Positions 28,754 to 35,487 of a stretch of 39,548 nt of DNA are shown here, in pieces (the stretch's first letter is position 1; each line of letters opens with the position of its first letter). The translations under genes were made by a program, and so were the position numbers. The notes below the pieces were generated by a model. That model saw only the letters and a list, made by a program, of their open reading frames with translations. It searched no databases and was not told where the DNA came from. The stretch lies in IMG/VR virus record IMGVR_UViG_2519899835_000008. The stretch is one strand, 5' to 3'. This DNA is from a virus (lineage: Duplodnaviria; Heunggongvirae; Uroviricota; Caudoviricetes).

Positions 28754-29254
28754 TCAGACTTTCGGCAAGTCGTAGCGACATAACCATTCATCCGCCGAAC
28801 GGCGGGCCTCAAGGCCGGGGAGTTTCACCCCCTTTGAATAAATCCAGCGGATATACTGCTTACAGGACGCGGGCATCTGTCCGGCATTGATAAGGCGCAG
28901 AAGCGTGGAGTTGCGGAAGTTCGTTTCACCGGCCCAGAAGATCCACGAAGCCAGCGCCACCGTCTGACCACGGGTAAGTGGCACCTGAACACGCCGGTCA
29001 ATGGCCGCAAAGGCCCATTTCATGTCCTTTTCCAGCAGTTCCAGACATTCTTCATCGGTTTTTGTCATACCCGGTTTCACATCCGGGCCGGTATGGCCGT
29101 GGCAGATGGTGGGGGTGCCGGTGGGGTCGAGATACGTGGTGTTTTCTTTCCCTTCCCAGTAGCCGGTGTAGTGCGTGGCAATAGTGAACGTCCCGGCTCC
29201 GGCCAGAACAAGGGCAATCAGCTTTTTACGCAGTGGCGCGGGGAGTTTTGGCAT
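28754..29254 (-). CDS. SAR endolysin (GH24 lysozyme with N-terminal signal-anchor-release domain)
   Basis: 166-aa ORF; weakly hydrophobic N-terminal segment LIALVLAGAGTFTIATHY; lysozyme-like core GTPTICHGHTG...GMTKTDEECLELLEKDMKW...VPLTRGQ resembling P22/P21 lysozymes. Confidence 0.75.
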   Translation of the reverse strand: MPKLPAPLRKKLIALVLAGAGTFTIATHYTGYWEGKENTTYLDPTGTPTICHGHTGPDVKPGMTKTDEECLELLEKDMKWAFAAIDRRVQVPLTRGQTVALASWIFWAGETNFRNSTLLRLINAGQMPASCKQYIRWIYSKGVKLPGLEARRSADEWLCRYDLPKV

Positions 29255-29325
29255 TGTTACGCTGTCTCATGGTGTTCTCTGAGCCAGCGTAACCGTGGAA
29301 AAAAGGGGGCAGGATTTGCGGAATA
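29255..29325 (-). promoter_or_regulatory. Candidate Mor/C-dependent late promoter and leader of the lysis operon
   Basis: Intergenic between activator gene and endolysin; minus-strand GCCCCC tract and a 9-bp inverted repeat GTTACGCTG / CAGCGTAAC ending at the endolysin start codon. Confidence 0.3.
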
Positions 29326-29748
29326 TCAGAAAAGCCGGGGCTGCGTGCGCTCCTGATGCAGGCGACGCTGGTTGCGGATAACGGAGTAAATCTGCGTCTC
29401 TGACATCTGGTAATGGCGGCGCAGGGTTTCAATTTTTTCACCCTGGCTCCAGCGGGAAAAAATCTCATTATTGCGCAGTTCGGTGAAAAGGGATTCACCG
29501 ACCGGGAGATAATAACCACGCCCGCCCATGTACCCGGCCTGTGCGGCCGCAACCTTACGGGCAAGCATTCCCGCCTGAGCAGATTCAATCCCCTGACGGT
29601 GCAGTTCAGCACTGATCACATCAACCAGGTCACGCAGCGTGCCGGGCCAGTTCTTTTTCAGCTCATCATCAGGAATATCATCCAGACGGTCAATCAGCGC
29701 GTGCAGCTGTTCGCTGTCACCAAACATGCTCATCTGTGTTTCAGCCAT
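29326..29748 (-). CDS. Mor/C-family late transcription activator
   Basis: 140-aa ORF with Mor-like pattern (N-terminal acidic FGD..L, central GGRGYYLPVG, C-terminal helix-turn-helix ...TQIYSVIRNQRR); positioned just upstream of the lysis genes. Confidence 0.7.
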   Translation of the reverse strand: MAETQMSMFGDSEQLHALIDRLDDIPDDELKKNWPGTLRDLVDVISAELHRQGIESAQAGMLARKVAAAQAGYMGGRGYYLPVGESLFTELRNNEIFSRWSQGEKIETLRRHYQMSETQIYSVIRNQRRLHQERTQPRLF

Positions 29749-29818
29749 ACCCGCCTCCGGTCATCATTACACAGGGCAAGTTTAAAATAAAAATCCCGCG
29801 CTGTGGCGGGATTTGGGG

Positions 29819-30328
29819 TTAAAAAGGGGAGGATTCTTCATACAGCCTGCAAACGCGCTCATAACTCATCACTGTACGCGCTGACATCCCCAGCACATCC
29901 AGCATCTTGCGACGGTGCCAGCGTTTGAGACGCTCCAGCACATCCGAGGCCAGTGCGGGGTGTTGCTCCAGCCACTGCCAGTTAGCCACACCTTCGCCAC
30001 CGTTCTGCGCGGCCGTCTGCGACTTCACCCAGCGGTTAAGGGCCGTTTCCCCGCCATCAGCGATAAAGCCCTGCCGGTGCATTACCTTCCAGATGGCGCG
30101 AATTTTGGCGGTCACCGTACCCGGTTTTAAGGCCCGGTTAACCGGTTTCTGACGCACTTTAAAACCGCGTTTTTTGAAAACATCCAGCACGCGGGATAAC
30201 TCATCCGGTGACATATCCCGGCAACTGGATTTGCCGGTGGCTGCCAGCAGAACGAATGTATAGGTTTCATCATCCAGGGCAAGCTCGCGCTTTGCCACAT
30301 GAATGGCGGATATCAGTTTCCCTCTCAT
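29819..30328 (-). CDS. GemA-like (Mu gp16-like) regulatory protein
   Basis: 169-aa ORF with N-terminus IHVAKRELALDDETY...TGKSSCRDMSPDELSRVLDVFKKRGF resembling Mu GemA/gp16 family. Confidence 0.55.
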   Translation of the reverse strand: MRGKLISAIHVAKRELALDDETYTFVLLAATGKSSCRDMSPDELSRVLDVFKKRGFKVRQKPVNRALKPGTVTAKIRAIWKVMHRQGFIADGGETALNRWVKSQTAAQNGGEGVANWQWLEQHPALASDVLERLKRWHRRKMLDVLGMSARTVMSYERVCRLYEESSPF

Positions 30329-30621
30329 GCTGTATCAACACTCCTGCTGATATGATAGATATTATTTTCCCGATCGAGCTGAACCCGATACTCCGGAGGA
30401 ATCACAAAAATATTAAAACCATCAACAGTTTTTATTCTTGAGTAGTATTCCCCCTTATGATATCTGGCAAGTGCATTAATCAGAGAAGCCGCCGCCAGCC
30501 CAATCAGGTATTTTTTATGAAAAATACTGATAACTTTCCGGCACAGCCATCGTGTAATGACGAATGCACCGAAAAACGATGTGATATATAAACACCAGAA
30601 CAACTGCGAACTACTGTCCAT
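30325..30621 (-). CDS. Hypothetical membrane protein (98 aa)
   Basis: Two hydrophobic segments (LFWCLYITSFFGAFVITRWL, LIGLAAASLINALA); overlapping start/stop with neighbours. Confidence 0.45.
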   Translation of the reverse strand: MDSSSQLFWCLYITSFFGAFVITRWLCRKVISIFHKKYLIGLAAASLINALARYHKGEYYSRIKTVDGFNIFVIPPEYRVQLDRENNIYHISRSVDTA

Positions 30622-30808
30622 TATCTTTCTCCTTATTCAGTCTTCTGCGGCATTCGGCACAGTCATCAGGGCTTTCAAATGTATCCGGCTCGCGATTATG
30701 AGCCAGATATAACCACCGCCCACATATACTGATATTTTCACCTGTTTTAAAAAAATGATGCTTCTTAGCCATCAATGGCCGCGCCCATCCAGCGGGTAGA
30801 CTATTCAT
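30611..30808 (-). CDS. Hypothetical small Cys-containing protein (65 aa)
   Basis: ORF with a CxEC motif and basic C-terminus; in an operon-like overlap chain. Confidence 0.4.
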   Translation of the reverse strand: MNSLPAGWARPLMAKKHHFFKTGENISICGRWLYLAHNREPDTFESPDDCAECRRRLNKEKDNGQ

Positions 30809-31175
30809 TAGCTTTATCCTCCATGCTGGACAGAATCATATGTATTAATGTCGGGCGTGGAGATATACGCATTTCATTAAGCGTCTGAAGGGCAGCAACA
30901 GCAGCCATTTTATCGGTGCCTCTGGCAATTTCTGCAAGAGAATGCACAATCCATAACGGACTTAACGCTACGGCTGAATCCAGAATCATGTCATCCATAA
31001 TAATTTCTGGCACATCCCGTTTGTCACATTCTTTATCCATAAAAGAAACGATTTTTTCCGCATCTTCCGGTTTCATACCTCCGGCGATAAGAATTTTACG
31101 ATATTCATAAGACGTTCTTAATTCAATGCTCATATTCATCTCCTGTAACTCTGACAAGGACGTGATTTTTCTCAT
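30801..31175 (-). CDS. Hypothetical protein (124 aa)
   Basis: ORF in overlap chain within the early region; no recognisable motif. Confidence 0.45.
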   Translation of the reverse strand: MRKITSLSELQEMNMSIELRTSYEYRKILIAGGMKPEDAEKIVSFMDKECDKRDVPEIIMDDMILDSAVALSPLWIVHSLAEIARGTDKMAAVAALQTLNEMRISPRPTLIHMILSSMEDKANE

Positions 31176-31357
31176 TTACGCCTCCCGGAAATACGAATGT
31201 ATATACCGATGAGAAAATCCATAATAAACAGGAAGAGCGACATCCTGATAAAGAACCAAATGTCAGGCATAATGGACAGGTTTCCTGTAATCGCAAATAT
31301 AAAACCAGTCCCCCACACTGGAACGATAATTGCGAAAAATACAAGTCTCTTTATCAT
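31172..31357 (-). CDS. Hypothetical small hydrophobic protein (61 aa, two predicted transmembrane segments)
   Basis: Sequence MIKRLVFFAIIVPVWGTGFIFAITGNLSIMPDIWFFIRMSLFLFIMDFLIGIYI is almost entirely hydrophobic; ATGA overlap with upstream gene. Confidence 0.4.
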   Translation of the reverse strand: MIKRLVFFAIIVPVWGTGFIFAITGNLSIMPDIWFFIRMSLFLFIMDFLIGIYIRISGRRK

Positions 31358-31905
31358 GGCGTTAACTCCCGTAATACAGCGTCCTCGGCGGTCCGTCGAC
31401 GGTAATAAACAGCGTGAGCAGAATGTTCAGATATGCCAAACTTTTCGCCAATTTCCCGGAATGACAGACGGCGAGGGTAATCGGAATCCCGTAGTGCACG
31501 TATAAGACGAACATCCTCATCAGATATACGTGTGCCGGGGCGTAACTCACCGCACTTTGTTAATCCGGCACCAATCATTCCTGCGCGGCACCTGACAGAG
31601 TCTTTATTACGTCCGAGATAATCCCCCATTTGCTGGCAGGTCATTGTCCGGGCATTTTTTCGGATAAATTTATCTTCATCAGGTGTAAATCGCGGTCGTT
31701 TATATTTCAGCAACTCCGGGTATGTACTGCGCAATACGCCAGTCCGGTTATATACGGCCCAGACACTTCTTTTTATTCTGGCGGCAATATCCTTAACCGG
31801 GGTGGAGGAATAAAGCGCAATCAGCAGCGCATCTTCTTCAGGTGTCCACGGGCGGACATGAGCAGGTGCACGACCTTTTCGCCCCATGGGTTGTAATTTC
31901 ATCAT
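31354..31905 (-). CDS. Hypothetical DNA-binding protein with three SANT/Myb-like or HTH-like repeats
   Basis: Repeats WTPEEDALLIALY...IAARIKRS, FTPDEDKFIRKNAR...MGDYLGR, ISDEDVRLIRALRD...FREIGEKFGIS. Confidence 0.45.
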   Translation of the reverse strand: MMKLQPMGRKGRAPAHVRPWTPEEDALLIALYSSTPVKDIAARIKRSVWAVYNRTGVLRSTYPELLKYKRPRFTPDEDKFIRKNARTMTCQQMGDYLGRNKDSVRCRAGMIGAGLTKCGELRPGTRISDEDVRLIRALRDSDYPRRLSFREIGEKFGISEHSAHAVYYRRRTAEDAVLRELTP

Positions 31906-31908
31906 GCA

Positions 31909-32424
31909 TCACCCCCTGACTCGCTTTTCAGCAGCATAAAACTCATCAGACAGAATTTCGGTCATTTTCTGATTTGCGGGTTTTACACCGCACTGAAGAT
32001 AAATCACATCGTCAACGCAGAACCACTCCACAGGGCCATACAGGATTGCTGAGAAATCAATGCCCAGCCAGAACAACAGGGCATCGGTTCTGGCATACGT
32101 GACGGGCGAATATTCACGCCACAGACTGTTCAGTTCGTCAGAGGCAGTGCGCAGGGCTTTGGGAATGCGCGATGTGCGCGGCGTGCAGCTCCAGCCATTC
32201 GACGCAGTCGGTTTTCGCCATAAGTCGCGATGAAAAGGATATTTGTCCTCCGTAAAACGCAGTCCCTTAAAACAAAAACCACTGATACTGAATTCAAATA
32301 CCGACCGGCACGCAACATTCAGCACGGCCTCAAGGCGTTTCGCCTCATCCTTAACTTTCTGGCAGTCCTGCTGATATTTTTGCCACGCGGCCAGCGCGGA
32401 AGGGTTTGATGTTTTAAAGAACAT
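31909..32424 (-). CDS. Hypothetical protein (171 aa)
   Basis: ORF in early-region overlap chain; no recognisable motif. Confidence 0.45.
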   Translation of the reverse strand: MFFKTSNPSALAAWQKYQQDCQKVKDEAKRLEAVLNVACRSVFEFSISGFCFKGLRFTEDKYPFHRDLWRKPTASNGWSCTPRTSRIPKALRTASDELNSLWREYSPVTYARTDALLFWLGIDFSAILYGPVEWFCVDDVIYLQCGVKPANQKMTEILSDEFYAAEKRVRG

Positions 32425-32957
32425 TACGCCACCTCCGCAGATATCCCGGCAGGCGCGGCCGTCCGGTCAACAATCAGGTAACGCAGAACGCGCGAGGTGA
32501 TATTCCAGCCGCTTAAACCGCAGATAATGACACCCAGGCGTATGTCGATATACGCCATCACAAACCGGGGCACGCCTTCTTTCATGGCCTGCTCATCAAC
32601 TTCAGCCACCACATAAACGGTTTCACAGGTCAGAACGCCCTGAGCAAATTCCCACGCCATTGACGGAATATCATGCCCCTCAATCCACGGCAGGGATTTT
32701 CTGAAGCTGCACCACTGAACATCATCAGCCGCACCTTCCTGGCTGCATTTGCGACGAACCGGCTGCACCGGGCGGGGACGCGGAATATCATAAAAACCGT
32801 TACATTCCGTCAGCACCCCGGCATCGACCGCATCACGCAGAAAATAAACCATCGAGGATGGCGGCATATTCATTTTTTCAGCCAGAATGCCGCAGGTCAG
32901 ACGCCCGTAAATACTCAGCCAGTTTTTAACCCCTTCAAGCACTTTTGCATCAATCAT
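32424..32957 (-). CDS. Hypothetical protein (177 aa)
   Basis: ORF in early-region overlap chain; no recognisable motif. Confidence 0.45.
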   Translation of the reverse strand: MIDAKVLEGVKNWLSIYGRLTCGILAEKMNMPPSSMVYFLRDAVDAGVLTECNGFYDIPRPRPVQPVRRKCSQEGAADDVQWCSFRKSLPWIEGHDIPSMAWEFAQGVLTCETVYVVAEVDEQAMKEGVPRFVMAYIDIRLGVIICGLSGWNITSRVLRYLIVDRTAAPAGISAEVA

Positions 32958-32960
32958 GAA

Positions 32961-33503
32961 TTATTCCTCCGTCAGCGCCACATATTCAGAATGTTTAATC
33001 TCCTGGCATTCTTCAGGAATACCCCCTTTTATTTCCCTGCCATAAGCGCCTACTTTAAACACCACGCACAGGGCATCACGGGAGAGCGACGGGGTCCACC
33101 AGGAGTCCATGTTAAACATGGAGGGGATTCTCATTACCCCCAGCTTTTCACAGAGCCAGACAAGGAAATCAGGACGCTTTCTTAACTCGCGTTCAGCGGC
33201 TTCAATCATTGCGGCAATCGCCGGTCCTTCAGGGCATGACTCATCAGGTCTGGCAATAAAGCACGGTCCGTCCCCGATAAAAGCCACATCATCGCGCTTA
33301 CGCCAGCCCGCAGGCAGAGCACCAGAAAAATAAAACTCACTGATTACGTCCATGGCAAACGGCTTTAAGCGCAATCCGGCAGCGCCTGTATTTTTCAGTA
33401 ATGCCCGAAGAATACTGTTGCGTAGCGGTAAAACAGTCTGTTGATATTTGGTGAAATATTTATTTGTCTGCACACGGTCTAATTTGAAATAAAAATATGC
33501 CAT
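32961..33503 (-). CDS. Hypothetical protein (180 aa)
   Basis: ORF downstream of gam in early operon; no recognisable motif. Confidence 0.45.
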   Translation of the reverse strand: MAYFYFKLDRVQTNKYFTKYQQTVLPLRNSILRALLKNTGAAGLRLKPFAMDVISEFYFSGALPAGWRKRDDVAFIGDGPCFIARPDESCPEGPAIAAMIEAAERELRKRPDFLVWLCEKLGVMRIPSMFNMDSWWTPSLSRDALCVVFKVGAYGREIKGGIPEECQEIKHSEYVALTEE

Positions 33504-33600
33504 ATATCCTGTTCCTTATTTTCAGTTTACAGGCGCAGGCAGTCCCCTGACGCGAGCGCCATACTTAAAACGATGTGATATTTAAAGATTTAATGCGGTG

Positions 33601-34131
33601 TTATTTATTCAGTCCGGCGTCCTGTTCAAAAGGCTCGACATAAAAACTTTCAGCGCCTTTATTCACCTTAATACCGGCAATGCCTTTCACTGCATCCGGC
33701 TCCGCCAGGACCGCTTCCTTGTTCACTTCCTCTTTCGTGCGGATGAATCGCTCAAGCCCCATACGGCGCAGCATTTCAATCACACCTTCCACATCACGGC
33801 TGACGCTGCATGATGGATTTCCCAGCCGCCATGACACTGTTCCGGTGGTCAGATTGGCTGTTTTGGTTTTGCCGCCGTTCGTCAGCTCATCGCGGTTGGT
33901 TTTGCACCAGTCCTGAATCCCCTTAAAAAGCACTTTGATTTCTTTTTTAAGGTTTTCAATCTGCGGCGTATAACGGGCGGTGATTTCTGCCACTTCATCA
34001 TTCATCGCCGTTTCCAGCCGCAGCGCCTCTCGCTGAATATCGCCCAGGGTACGGATATCGCGGCTGACTTCTTCGCGGGTCTGCGGTGCGGCCTCGGCTA
34101 CAGCCTTTAATTTTGTAACGCGTTTTGCCAT
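33601..34131 (-). CDS. gam: Host-nuclease inhibitor Gam (Mu Gam, Ku-like DNA end-binding protein)
   Basis: 176-aa ORF with motifs LRLETAMND..AEIT, WCKTNRDELTNGGKTKTANLTTGTVSWR, GLERFIRTKEEVNKEA, EPFEQDAG closely paralleling Mu Gam. Confidence 0.85.
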   Translation of the reverse strand: MAKRVTKLKAVAEAAPQTREEVSRDIRTLGDIQREALRLETAMNDEVAEITARYTPQIENLKKEIKVLFKGIQDWCKTNRDELTNGGKTKTANLTTGTVSWRLGNPSCSVSRDVEGVIEMLRRMGLERFIRTKEEVNKEAVLAEPDAVKGIAGIKVNKGAESFYVEPFEQDAGLNK

Positions 34132-34142
34132 TTTGTTTTTCC

Positions 34143-34436
34143 TTATTGCAATGTATCTGGTGCGTTCTGCAAGGAGCGGCGCTCAATGCTGCTTTTCACC
34201 CCCAGAGCCTGCATGGAACCCTGAAGTTCATCTGTCAGAAACTGAATAATTGTGGGGCTGTGATATTTAAGAATTTGCGCATAAACATCACATGGGCCTG
34301 TCGGTCTGTTCTCCGTATCACGTTCGATTTTTACAGTGGCAGTAACCCCCTCCGTGATTTCCTGACTATCATTACCGGCTGGCTTTACTTCATGCATTAC
34401 GTGGTTAAATTCAAAAATAACGCGTACTTTGCTCAT
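34143..34436 (-). CDS. Hypothetical small protein, paralogue 1 (MSKVRVIFEF...)
   Basis: Start taken at internal Met of ORF 34143..34463; N-terminus parallels the adjacent upstream gene. Confidence 0.45.
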   Translation of the reverse strand: MSKVRVIFEFNHVMHEVKPAGNDSQEITEGVTATVKIERDTENRPTGPCDVYAQILKYHSPTIIQFLTDELQGSMQALGVKSSIERRSLQNAPDTLQ

Positions 34437-34713
34437 GGAATTCCCCCTGCTGATTAAATTCATTACCGTTAATAACCCCGGAAGCCATGCCCCTGTCTTT
34501 CATGAATGCACTGGCTTTCATTGCCACAAGCTCTGCGAAGTTTCTGCTTTCCGCGAGCATAACCACCCCAAAAATCATGGCGGGTCCATCACCTTTCTGC
34601 TTTATCCCGGTTGAACGTATGTCCAGACTTACCCCCATGCGCACTGTTCCATCAGCGTTTTTATGGATAACGTGCTCCTTATATTCGAAAATAATGTGTA
34701 CGACTTTACTCAT
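34411..34713 (-). CDS. Hypothetical small protein, paralogue 2 (MSKVVHIIFEY...)
   Basis: 100-aa ORF; N-terminal 12 residues parallel the next gene; ATGA overlap with upstream gene. Confidence 0.5.
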   Translation of the reverse strand: MSKVVHIIFEYKEHVIHKNADGTVRMGVSLDIRSTGIKQKGDGPAMIFGVVMLAESRNFAELVAMKASAFMKDRGMASGVINGNEFNQQGEFHEQSTRYF

Positions 34714-34991
34714 CCTCTGGTCCTCGTTCTGTTTGGATAACTGACCCGGCGTCTGACCTCACGGCAGAACCGAATCATGGCATTAAAGGCTTCTTCCTCC
34801 GTCACCGCTTCCGGTATCCCCGGAACCAGTAACTGCTCCTGTTCATCACGTCCATGACGCGCCATAACCTCAATCACATGCCGTACCGTGGCAGGCTTTC
34901 CGGCAACTATCGGCAATGCACCTTCCGGCAGGACGTAACCAAACTCAATAAGACCGCTCGACCACGCCCACGCAATCAGATTTCGTTTCAT
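34710..34991 (-). CDS. Hypothetical protein (93 aa)
   Basis: ORF in early operon overlap chain. Confidence 0.45.
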   Translation of the reverse strand: MKRNLIAWAWSSGLIEFGYVLPEGALPIVAGKPATVRHVIEVMARHGRDEQEQLLVPGIPEAVTEEEAFNAMIRFCREVRRRVSYPNRTRTRG

Positions 34992-34992
34992 C

Positions 34993-35247
34993 TCACACCT
35001 CCCAGTAAACCGTGCAGCCGCTGATGCGGGTGGCCTTCACACGGCGGCGCAGGCCGTTGGTCTGTATGGTGATTTCAATTTCACCGGTTCCCTGCACGTT
35101 GCCTACCGGCGGCGTGGTTTTCAGTGCAAAACGTTGCGGATAGCGCTTACTGCGTTCCAGTACCGCACCGGCAAGTTCGGTCAGACGGCGCGCGCTGTTC
35201 AGGGAGTCGAATAAATTCATTTTGTTACCGCAGGATTGCATATTCAT
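34993..35247 (-). CDS. Hypothetical protein (84 aa)
   Basis: ORF in early operon downstream of the transposition ATPase. Confidence 0.4.
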   Translation of the reverse strand: MNMQSCGNKMNLFDSLNSARRLTELAGAVLERSKRYPQRFALKTTPPVGNVQGTGEIEITIQTNGLRRRVKATRISGCTVYWEV

Positions 35248-35259
35248 ATAACACCTCGT

Positions 35260-35487
35260 TTAGCTGATTCGTTTTGCACCGATAAAACGACAAATATTGC
35301 TGTAAGCTTCTTTCGCACCTTCACGATCAAGTCCTGCCGATATTGCCATTCTGGTGCGATCATTAAATTCAAAAAGTAAATCGCCACATTCTTCACTGTC
35401 AGACACGGAGACTGCTTTGACGTTATCGAAATTCACCAGGTGAAAGCGTCCGTAAATATCAGGAATATTAAATGCAATCATAATCAC
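35260..35487 (-). CDS. Hypothetical protein (75 aa; Mu kil position)
   Basis: ORF immediately downstream of, and overlapping, the B-like ATPase gene. Confidence 0.4.
   Translation of the reverse strand: MIMIAFNIPDIYGRFHLVNFDNVKAVSVSDSEECGDLLFEFNDRTRMAISAGLDREGAKEAYSNICRFIGAKRIS

What the first reader, a model, noticed from the sequence alone, without database searches (positions are those of the whole stretch)
30325..33503. Early-region block of eight uncharacterised genes (candidate host-takeover or anti-defence locus)
Between the GemA-like gene and gam lie eight tightly packed, mostly overlapping ORFs (61-183 aa) with no features I can assign: two small membrane proteins, a Cys-motif protein, a repeat helix-turn-helix protein and four without motifs. 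This semi-essential early region is the most variable part of Mu-like genomes and is expressed immediately after induction.
Basis: inference. Interest (0 to 1): 0.65.

Follow-up and report, generated by a model that had tools for sequence, protein, structure and literature searches.

The report
Mu-like prophage accessory early gene block
The eight genes are real, but they are the ordinary, still uncharacterised "semi-essential early" stretch of an E. coli Mu-like prophage: a conserved four-gene core followed by four swappable low-GC cargo genes, with nothing so far that ties any of them to anti-defence.

Summary
Eight minus-strand ORFs (30325-33503) lie between gam and gemA of an E. coli Mu-like prophage. 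Each has a Shine-Dalgarno-like site, stays intact in related prophages, and shows pN/pS of about 0.05-0.65 wherever synonymous differences allow an estimate.

They fall into two layers.
- **Conserved core (o1-o4):** o2 is Mu gp11 (68% identity, Pfam Gp11_C). o3 is Mu gp12 (55%). o4 is a three-repeat Myb-like HTH protein of the Mu gp9/E8 family. o1 is a divergent DUF5420 protein that Mu lacks but SfMu and other Mu-like phages carry.
- **Cargo (o5-o8):** 39-45% GC against 53.5% for the window, with recombination breakpoints at gene borders. It comprises a 2-TM peptide, a Mu-like-specific 110-aa protein, a small H-C-C-C protein found in many unrelated phages, and an N-terminally anchored protein.

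One modest new point: o1 (DUF5420) and o3 (gp12) appear to share a fold with no solved relative.

No ORF matches a defence model, a host-takeover PHROG, a solved structure or a paper. The anti-defence reading is therefore untested. The region is a known kind, and these exact sequences already sit in hundreds of genomes as "hypothetical protein".

The parts
32961..33503 (-). o1, 180 aa: divergent DUF5420-family protein (phrog_2260). A presence/absence cassette next to gam, absent from Mu itself.
32424..32957 (-). o2, 177 aa: orthologue of Mu gp11. Probable N-terminal winged helix (residues ~1-57) plus the Gp11_C domain (90-167).
   Evidence: 68% identity to Mu gp11, E 2.7e-81. Pfam PF25754 at 135 bits against a cut-off of 27. 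phrog_1949. The stretch SSM(V/I)YFLRDAVDAGVLT, invariant apart from that one V/I position, aligns weakly to a MarR wHTH (E 0.77, not significant).
31909..32424 (-). o3, 171 aa: orthologue of Mu gp12 (Pfam PF26885). The predicted fold resembles that of o1.
   Evidence: 55% identity to Mu gp12, E 9.7e-68. All 46 homologues carry precomputed PF26885. AF2 pLDDT 74.7. BFVD hit list shares 8 targets with o1. hhalign of the o1 family against the o3 family gives E 0.0018 over 159 columns.
31354..31905 (-). o4, 183 aa: basic protein (37 K+R) with three Myb/SANT-like HTH repeats. Same PHROG as Mu gp9 (E8), which has two repeats.
   Evidence: phrog_323 E 2.5e-53. Mu gp9 hits phrog_323 at E 1.3e-28. Allelic o4 variants match Mu gp9 at 31-33% over 101 aa. 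Pfam Myb scores 23.6 bits, just under the 24.4 cut-off, and HTH models hit at residues 125-164. Repeat alignment.
31172..31357 (-). o5, 61 aa: two-transmembrane-segment peptide, the occupant of a cassette-swap slot.
   Evidence: Kyte-Doolittle 19-residue peaks of 2.38 and 2.02. No PHROG. pN/pS 0.28-0.38 in three comparisons, frameshifted in one O157 strain. Window 31147-31347 is replaced by one or two unrelated genes (phrog_6925 with or without phrog_6158) in five other prophages. GC 38.7%.
   Evidence: The PHROG match starts at residue 15 of the 124-aa form. RefSeq aa. 34% identical to SfMu gp14; found in only 7 phage records, all Mu-like. Absent in L006, L007 and L008. GC 40.5%.
30611..30808 (-). 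o7, 65 aa: small protein with an invariant H-C-C-C (probable zinc-binding) motif. A promiscuous early-operon gene of many unrelated phages.
   Evidence: H18, C29, C50 and C53 are invariant against Klebsiella and Pseudomonas homologues. tblastn finds 271 phage records, 229 of them Pseudomonas phages, largely Pbunavirus-type such as 14-1. Homologues sit directly upstream of GemA in a different Salmonella Mu-like prophage and in a Cro/Q early operon in Citrobacter. pN/pS 0.05-0.19. No Pfam family and no name.
30325..30621 (-). o8, 98 aa: protein with a conserved N-terminal hydrophobic anchor; overlaps the gemA start by 4 nt.
   Evidence: phrog_17269. Found only in E. coli Mu-like prophages. A 51%-identical 103-aa allele keeps the segment WCLYITSFFGAFVITRWLC. 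Replaced by a reverse-strand DUF2513 gene or a Mu gp14-like gene in other prophages. GC 40.1%.
33601..34131 (-). gam (upstream flank)
   Evidence: Pfam Phage_Mu_Gam 142 bits. 57% identical to Mu Gam.
29819..30328 (-). gemA (downstream flank, last gene before the terminator-like site)
   Evidence: Pfam GemA 104 bits. 47% identical to Mu GemA.
29791..29814 (-). Terminator-like hairpin (9-bp stem, T tail) 5 nt after the gemA stop: the likely end of the early transcript.
   Evidence: scan_promoters_terminators. Morons are inserted at this point in L006 and L007.

Best explanation
The block is the distal half of the semi-essential early (SEE) operon of an E. coli Mu-like prophage. It is probably transcribed from the early promoter together with ner-A-B-...-gam and gemA, and ends at a hairpin just after gemA.

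It has two layers. Layer 1 (o1-o4) is a conserved accessory module of enterobacterial Mu-like phages. It consists of a DUF5420-like protein, the gp11 winged-helix/Gp11_C protein, gp12 (which seems to share the DUF5420 fold), and a basic triple Myb-like HTH protein of the gp9/E8 family. I infer that these are nucleic-acid- or nucleoprotein-directed helper and regulatory factors. Like their neighbours Gam and GemA, they would tune phage DNA transactions and host DNA metabolism early after induction, and would be dispensable for plaque formation.

Layer 2 (o5-o8) is low-GC cargo exchanged between phages at gene borders. It comprises two small membrane proteins, a Mu-like-specific helical protein and a widely travelling small zinc-motif protein, most plausibly host-interaction factors.

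Shown: gene reality, orthology, the conserved-versus-cargo split, mosaic breakpoints and operon-like layout. Inferred: co-transcription, DNA binding and every biochemical role.
For: Position and layout: c/ner/A/B/gam upstream and gemA/Mor-family/lysozyme downstream, all on the minus strand. Promoter- and terminator-like sites inside the block are no more frequent than in shuffles, and there is a strong terminator-like site after gemA.

Orthology: o2 to Mu gp11 at 68%, o3 to Mu gp12 at 55%. o4 and Mu gp9 both fall in phrog_323.

Synteny: the order DUF5420-gp11-gp12 is kept downstream of Gam, or of DUF3164 in its place, in the five Mu-like viral contigs examined (L037, L045, L046, L049, L051). 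One of them has two tandem DUF5420 genes.

Selection: pN/pS below 1 in every comparison where synonymous differences allow an estimate.

Cargo layer: GC 38.7-44.9% against 53.5% for the window. Breakpoints fall at 31146/31348, 30624, 30304/30889 and 32965/33486. Other prophages carry alternative genes in the same slots.

DNA-binding cues: Myb/HTH Pfam hits and 37 K+R in o4, and a conserved wHTH-like segment in o2.

[quoted passage not shown] Gam and GemA of a Mu-like Pseudomonas phage both act at the interface with host DNA repair and Gabija (PMC12407980).
Confidence: 0.55

Rival explanations
1. Anti-defence locus: one or more of the eight proteins, most plausibly the swappable o1 or o5-o8, directly inhibits a host immune system (restriction-modification, Gabija, RecBCD-linked systems and the like).
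For: Early expression position, cassette-like turnover at gene borders and foreign GC. o7 occurs in the early gene blocks of many unrelated phages, which is typical of accessory counter-defence genes. The neighbours Gam and GemA interact with host repair and Gabija in a related phage (PMC12407980).
Against: There is no similarity to any characterised protein: no PHROG of the 'host takeover' category, nothing in PADLOC or NCBIfam, no PDB sequence or fold match, and no literature. No anti-defence HMM library was available. The argument is positional only, and it does not apply to the conserved o2-o4.
Confidence: 0.25
2. Core replication helpers: o1-o3, with or without o4, are the molecular basis of a classical SEE phenotype such as arm (amplified replication of Mu). 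They would act directly on transposition or replication complexes rather than on the host.
For: The strict DUF5420-gp11-gp12 synteny lies just after the transposition genes and Gam or DUF3164 in divergent Mu-like phages. gp11 and gp12 are present in Mu itself. The SEE region is reported to contain arm and other functions not yet assigned to genes (PMC4553209).
Against: Mu lacks o1, and two E. coli prophages lack it as well. A distant DUF5420 relative occurs in a non-transposable phage. I could not retrieve the mapping of arm to these ORFs; it is recalled from memory, not tested.
Confidence: 0.15
3. Lysogen-benefit morons: the small membrane proteins o5 and o8 are superinfection-exclusion or fitness factors expressed from the prophage.
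For: They are small membrane proteins with foreign GC in a swap slot. Other prophages carry true reverse-strand morons nearby, such as DUF2513 and genes inserted after gemA.
Against: o5 and o8 lie on the early-operon strand. They overlap, or sit within tens of bases of, their neighbours, and promoter-like sites are no more frequent than chance. They should therefore be repressed in a lysogen. o5 is frameshifted in one strain.
Confidence: 0.05

Closest known systems
Semi-essential early (SEE) region of bacteriophage Mu (genes gp11-gp15/Mu_54 between gam and gemA; AF083977)
   Same: Same position, strand and packing between gam and gemA. o2 and o3 are orthologues of Mu gp11 (68%) and gp12 (55%). 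o4 belongs to the Mu gp9/E8 family. All are annotated as hypothetical.
   Different: Mu has no o1. It carries gp13, gp14 and Mu_54 where this prophage has o4-o8, and it keeps its gp9-family gene upstream of gam with two repeats rather than three. Mu has an intergenic semi-early promoter before gemA, whereas here o8 overlaps gemA.
Shigella phage SfMu and Yersinia Mu-like phages (vB_YpM_3/5/6/23, Tongde)
   Same: They carry a DUF5420-type gene right after gam (37-40% identical to o1), then gp11-like and gp12-like genes, and an o6 homologue (34-36%).
   Different: They keep Mu-type gp13 and gp14 instead of o5, o7 and o8, and their gp9-family gene lies upstream of gam.
Pfam DUF5420 (PF17457) and the Mu gp12 family (PF26885)
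   Same: The o1 profile retrieves proteins of which 19 of 25 aligned members hit DUF5420. o3 homologues carry PF26885. Both are phage proteins of about 170-200 aa of unknown function.
   Different: o1 itself does not reach the DUF5420 model at E<=0.1. The o1/o3 link rests on shared BFVD hits, the same secondary-structure order and hhalign E 0.0018. That is suggestive, not proof of homology.
Small early proteins of Pseudomonas Pbunavirus phages (e.g. phage 14-1 ORF85) and a Klebsiella phage vB_Ko_K70PH128C1 ORF
   Same: They are homologues of o7 (44-66% identity) with the same invariant H-C-C-C positions, and they sit in blocks of small early genes.
   Different: The host phages are unrelated and not transposable. 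None has been characterised.

Membership tests
Mu-type semi-essential early (SEE) region | Lies between the transposition genes (A, B) and the Mor/C activator of a transposable Mu-like phage, flanked by gam and gemA | tested here: met
   The ORF map and Pfam place Gam and GemA on either side. A, B, ner and a Mor-family gene are annotated in an identical prophage.
Mu-type semi-essential early (SEE) region | Tightly packed small genes on the early-operon strand with no internal terminator | tested here: met
   Overlaps and gaps run from -11 to +38 nt. Terminator-like sites are not above the shuffle expectation inside the block, and a strong one follows gemA.
Mu-type semi-essential early (SEE) region | Dispensable for lytic growth; early transcription after induction | not testable with these tools
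   This needs deletion mutants and RNA-seq. There is only indirect support: o1, o5, o6, o7 and o8 are each missing from some otherwise similar prophages.
Mu gp11 family (Pfam Gp11_C, PF25754) - o2 | Score above the Pfam gathering cut-off, and full-length similarity to Mu gp11 | tested here: met
   135.4 bits against 27; 68% identity over 177 aa.
Mu gp12 family (PF26885) - o3 | Full-length similarity to Mu gp12 and membership of PF26885 | tested here: met
   55% identity over 168 aa. All 46 homologues, including proteins 94-98% identical to o3, carry precomputed PF26885. The model itself is not in the local Pfam copy.
DUF5420 (PF17457) - o1 | Direct match to the Pfam model above its cut-off | tested here: not met
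   No hit at E<=0.1 for o1. The 38%-identical Salmonella homologue reaches only 15 bits against a cut-off of 26.
DUF5420 (PF17457) - o1 | Transitive homology through a family profile | tested here: met
   The o1-family profile finds 26 representatives. 19 of 25 aligned members hit DUF5420, best E 9.3e-28. They share the C-terminal EIKxSEFxALTEE motif.
SANT/Myb-like HTH proteins (PF00249) and phrog_323 'D5-like transcriptional regulator' - o4 | Match to the domain model; repeated HTH units | tested here: inconclusive
   Pfam Myb scores 23.6 bits, just under the 24.4 cut-off. Several HTH models hit below their cut-offs. phrog_323 matches at E 2.5e-53. Three repeats align with the two of Mu gp9. 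DNA binding was not tested.
Known defence or anti-defence proteins | Similarity to any characterised defence, anti-defence or host-takeover protein | tested here: not met

The most novel reading that the evidence does not exclude
DUF5420 (o1) and gp12 (o3) are ancient paralogues with a new fold. Together with the gp11 winged-helix protein they would form a conserved three-protein module that works beside Gam or DUF3164 on DNA ends or transposition intermediates. It could, for example, protect or hide phage DNA from host repair-linked immunity such as RecBCD or Gabija. That would make it a new family of phage host-DNA-metabolism modulators.
Probability: 0.15. Interest if true: 0.6.

Novelty: new member of a known kind. 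Interest (0 to 1): 0.3.

Why it matters
The SEE region of Mu-like phages has been known for decades as a stretch of small, dispensable early genes. Apart from kil, gam and gemA/mor, almost none has a function assigned at the gene level. This window adds another mosaic version of that region, not a new kind of element.

Two things are useful. First, there is now a clear map of which genes are conserved (o2-o4, usually with o1) and which are swap-in cargo (o5-o8, and o1 as an indel). That tells an experimenter which genes to test for phage-intrinsic roles and which for host or defence interactions. Second, DUF5420 and Mu gp12 appear to share a fold with no solved relative. They sit in fixed order around gp11 next to Gam, which makes the trio a defined target for structure and interaction work.

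Tried and rejected
- **Family libraries.** NCBIfam and PADLOC scans of all eight proteins found nothing.
- **Solved structures by sequence.** Searches with o1-o4 alone and with family profiles for o1, o2 and o3 found nothing significant. The best hit was a MarR wHTH at E 0.77 for o2.
- **o1/o3 paralogy by sequence.** BLASTP gave E 0.64 and a shallow hhalign gave E 0.49, neither significant. A deeper profile reached only E 0.0018 with probability 15%. I therefore treat paralogy as suggested mainly by the overlapping fold-search hits, not as proven.
- **Direct BLAST of o4-o8 against Mu early proteins.** No matches. The o4-gp9 link appeared only through an allelic variant and the shared PHROG.
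- **RNA elements.** The Rfam scan of 29000-35000 gave only one sub-threshold chance hit.
- **Literature.** Searches for DUF5420, PF26885, PF25754 and Mu-Gp12 returned no papers. One search, for 'arm', was swamped by irrelevant papers, so I could not check where arm maps.
- **Rejected readings.** 'All eight are conserved Mu core genes' fails because only o2 and o3 have direct Mu orthologues. 'The whole block is hypervariable' fails because o2-o4 are conserved.


Full report
**What the window is.** The window carries a complete Mu-like prophage on the minus strand. Reading from high to low coordinates it has:
- a repressor-side ORF (38925+), ner, transposase A and ATPase B;
- five small ORFs, then gam (33601-34131);
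- the eight ORFs of the finding, then gemA (29819-30328);
- a Mor/C-family activator and a lysozyme.

The 3.2-kb block is 100% identical to a prophage in E. coli FORC_069 and six other complete E. coli records. It matches 233 of 5,426 complete E. coli genomes, mostly at 90-95% identity. In the phage collection it matches only two Stx-phage records that carry an inserted Mu-like phage.

**Check of the observation.** The eight ORFs exist at the stated coordinates, all on the minus strand. They are joined by 1-11 nt overlaps or 3-nt gaps. RefSeq annotates the same eight CDSs, with one difference: o6 starts at the second ATG (31133, 110 aa), which leaves a 38-nt gap after o5. That start agrees with the PHROG match, which begins at residue 15, and with the homologues.
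- Every start has a GGAG/AGGA-type site upstream.
- Across five to eight diverged prophages the ORFs stay intact. The exceptions are one frameshifted o5 and one o3 with a 1-nt indel.
- pN/pS is about 0.05-0.65 wherever synonymous differences exist. o8 is informative in only one comparison, at 0.65.

These are real genes, not chance ORFs.

**Identity of each gene.**
- **o2** is the orthologue of Mu gp11: 68% identity, and Pfam Gp11_C scores 135 bits. Its N-terminal ~57 residues look like a winged helix. The segment SSM(V/I)YFLRDAVDAGVLT, invariant but for that one position, aligns to a MarR protein, though not significantly.
- **o3** is the orthologue of Mu gp12: 55% identity, and its homologues carry precomputed PF26885.
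- **o4** is a basic protein with three Myb/SANT-like HTH repeats. It falls in phrog_323 together with Mu gp9 (E8), which has two repeats and lies upstream of gam in Mu. Allelic o4 variants match Mu gp9 directly at 31-33%.
- **o1** has no counterpart in Mu. It is 37-40% identical to the gene that follows gam in SfMu and in Yersinia Mu-like phages, which RefSeq annotates as DUF5420 in SfMu. o1 itself misses the DUF5420 model. However, an exhaustive profile search of 1.84 billion representatives finds 26 relatives, and 19 of 25 aligned members hit DUF5420. It is a small, rare family with a conserved C-terminal EIKxSEFxALTEE motif.
- **o5** is a 61-aa peptide with two strongly hydrophobic segments and no PHROG.
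- **o6** (phrog_1988) occurs only in Mu-like phages, for example SfMu gp14 at 34%.
- **o7** has invariant H18, C29, C50 and C53. It is widespread: 271 phage records, 229 of them Pseudomonas phages of the Pbunavirus type, plus Klebsiella and Pantoea phages. A homologue sits directly upstream of GemA in a different Salmonella Mu-like prophage, and another sits in a Cro/Q early operon in Citrobacter.
- **o8** (phrog_17269) is confined to E. coli Mu-like prophages. A 51%-identical allele keeps its N-terminal hydrophobic segment.

None of the eight matches NCBIfam, PADLOC, a PHROG with a host-takeover label, or any solved structure by sequence. All eight exact sequences are already public, on hundreds of contigs. 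They are named 'hypothetical protein', except o4 and one UniRef label 'putative prophage DNA binding protein' for o2.

**Structure of o1 and o3.**
- AlphaFold2 gave a confident o1 model (pLDDT 87.9, pTM 0.79) and a moderate o3 model (pLDDT 74.7).
- Their secondary-structure order is nearly the same: beta, two helices, beta hairpin(s), two helices, three strands, C-terminal helix.
- Against BFVD, both models hit uncharacterised phage proteins of 174-196 aa, and eight targets are shared between the two top lists. For example, A0A2I7QJM5 scores E 1.8e-7 for o1 and 2.8e-3 for o3, and A0A7G8Z7V2 scores 8.8e-3 and 1.4e-9.
- Profile-profile comparison improved from E 0.49 to E 0.0018 over 159 collinear columns when the o1 family was deepened.

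I read this as good but not conclusive evidence that DUF5420 and Mu gp12 share a fold and probably an ancestor. It is the only modestly new point to come out of this work.

**Conserved core versus cargo.** In five other E. coli prophages and in five more distant Mu-like viral contigs, the order DUF5420-gp11-gp12 is kept just downstream of Gam, or of a DUF3164 protein in Gam's place. One contig has two tandem DUF5420 genes, and o4 often follows. Pairwise DNA alignment shows sharp breakpoints at gene borders:
- o1 (32966-33485) is cleanly absent from two prophages.
- The o5 cassette (31147-31347) is replaced by one or two unrelated genes (phrog_6925 with or without phrog_6158) in all five.
- o6 and o7 are absent from two.
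- o7 and o8 are replaced by a reverse-strand DUF2513 gene in one.

Composition agrees with this split. o5-o8 are 38.7-44.9% GC and o1 is 48.1%, against 50-54% for o2-o4, 55.7% for gemA and 53.5% for the window. So the block is not uniformly 'the most variable part'. It is a conserved module followed by a cassette-exchange zone.

**Operon context.** Promoter- and terminator-like sites inside the block are no more frequent than in shuffled sequence. A 9-bp-stem hairpin with a T tail lies 5 nt after the gemA stop. No Rfam family is present. The layout fits one early polycistronic transcript that ends after gemA. This is an inference from layout, with no expression data behind it.

**Comparison with what is known.** The literature describes the SEE region of Mu-like phages as a long, poorly conserved stretch of small proteins with uncharacterised functions. 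[quoted passage not shown] In a Pseudomonas Mu-like phage, Gam and GemA both license Gabija restriction, which links these flanking genes to host DNA-repair antagonism (PMC12407980). I found no paper that mentions DUF5420, the gp11 or gp12 Pfam families, or these proteins.

**Verdict.** The genes are uncharacterised early accessory genes and half of them are true cargo, but there is no specific evidence for anti-defence or host takeover. The best-supported reading (about 0.55) is an ordinary SEE accessory operon. Its conserved part would be a DNA- or nucleoprotein-directed module (o1-o4), and the rest exchangeable host-interaction cargo (o5-o8). Rivals are an anti-defence role for some cargo genes (about 0.25), replication-helper 'arm'-type functions for o1-o3 (about 0.15), and lysogen-benefit morons (about 0.05). 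The feature is a new member of a known kind, and interest is low to moderate.

Noticed in passing
window 29326-29748 (-), with 29791-29814: The prophage has a single Mor/C-family activator. It is closer to Mu C (40%, E 2.3e-33) than to Mu Mor (27%). It sits after the terminator-like hairpin that follows gemA and directly before the lysozyme, so the Mu two-step Mor-then-C cascade may be collapsed into one step here.
   Followed up: partly
window 1-576 (+); L002 16477-17179: The left end of the window encodes the N-terminal part of a PapC-type fimbrial usher (PapC_N, E 2e-50). In FORC_069 the other prophage flank is a truncated usher pseudogene, so the prophage has inserted into, and disrupted, a fimbrial usher gene.
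   Followed up: partly
window 3043-5097 (-): A 684-aa protein with a SASA (sialate O-acetylesterase-type carbohydrate esterase) domain and DUF6645 lies between mom (683-1420) and the Gin-type invertase (5183-5755). This is an unusual cargo or tail-fibre-associated gene for a Mu-like phage.
   Followed up: no
window 34143-35487 (-): Five further small ORFs (75-106 aa) lie between B and gam. Only one (34993-35247) shows weak similarity to Mu Kil (33%, E 1e-4). The others have no Mu counterpart, and this stretch also varies between E. coli prophages.
   Followed up: partly
L006 1456-1797, L007 1647-2304, L005 2026-2436, L008 2530-2769: In related E. coli prophages, unrelated genes, most of them on the reverse strand (DUF2513, and 78-, 79-, 113- and 140-aa proteins of unknown function), are inserted either at the terminator after gemA or just upstream of gemA. 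These are moron-type insertion hot spots that might hold prophage-encoded defence genes.
   Followed up: partly
L045 3274-3912, L049 3260-3904, L051 3273-3911: In some Mu-like viral contigs a DUF3164 protein (E 2e-75 where scanned, in L045 and L049) occupies the Gam position immediately upstream of the DUF5420-gp11-gp12 module. This suggests that DUF3164 is a functional substitute for Gam.
   Followed up: partly
L053 3983-4585: A distant DUF5420 protein (PF17457, E 1.6e-6) occurs in a non-Mu phage contig, downstream of a large DUF5906-domain gene (possibly primase/helicase type) and upstream of a small terminase. The family is therefore not restricted to transposable phages.
   Followed up: partly
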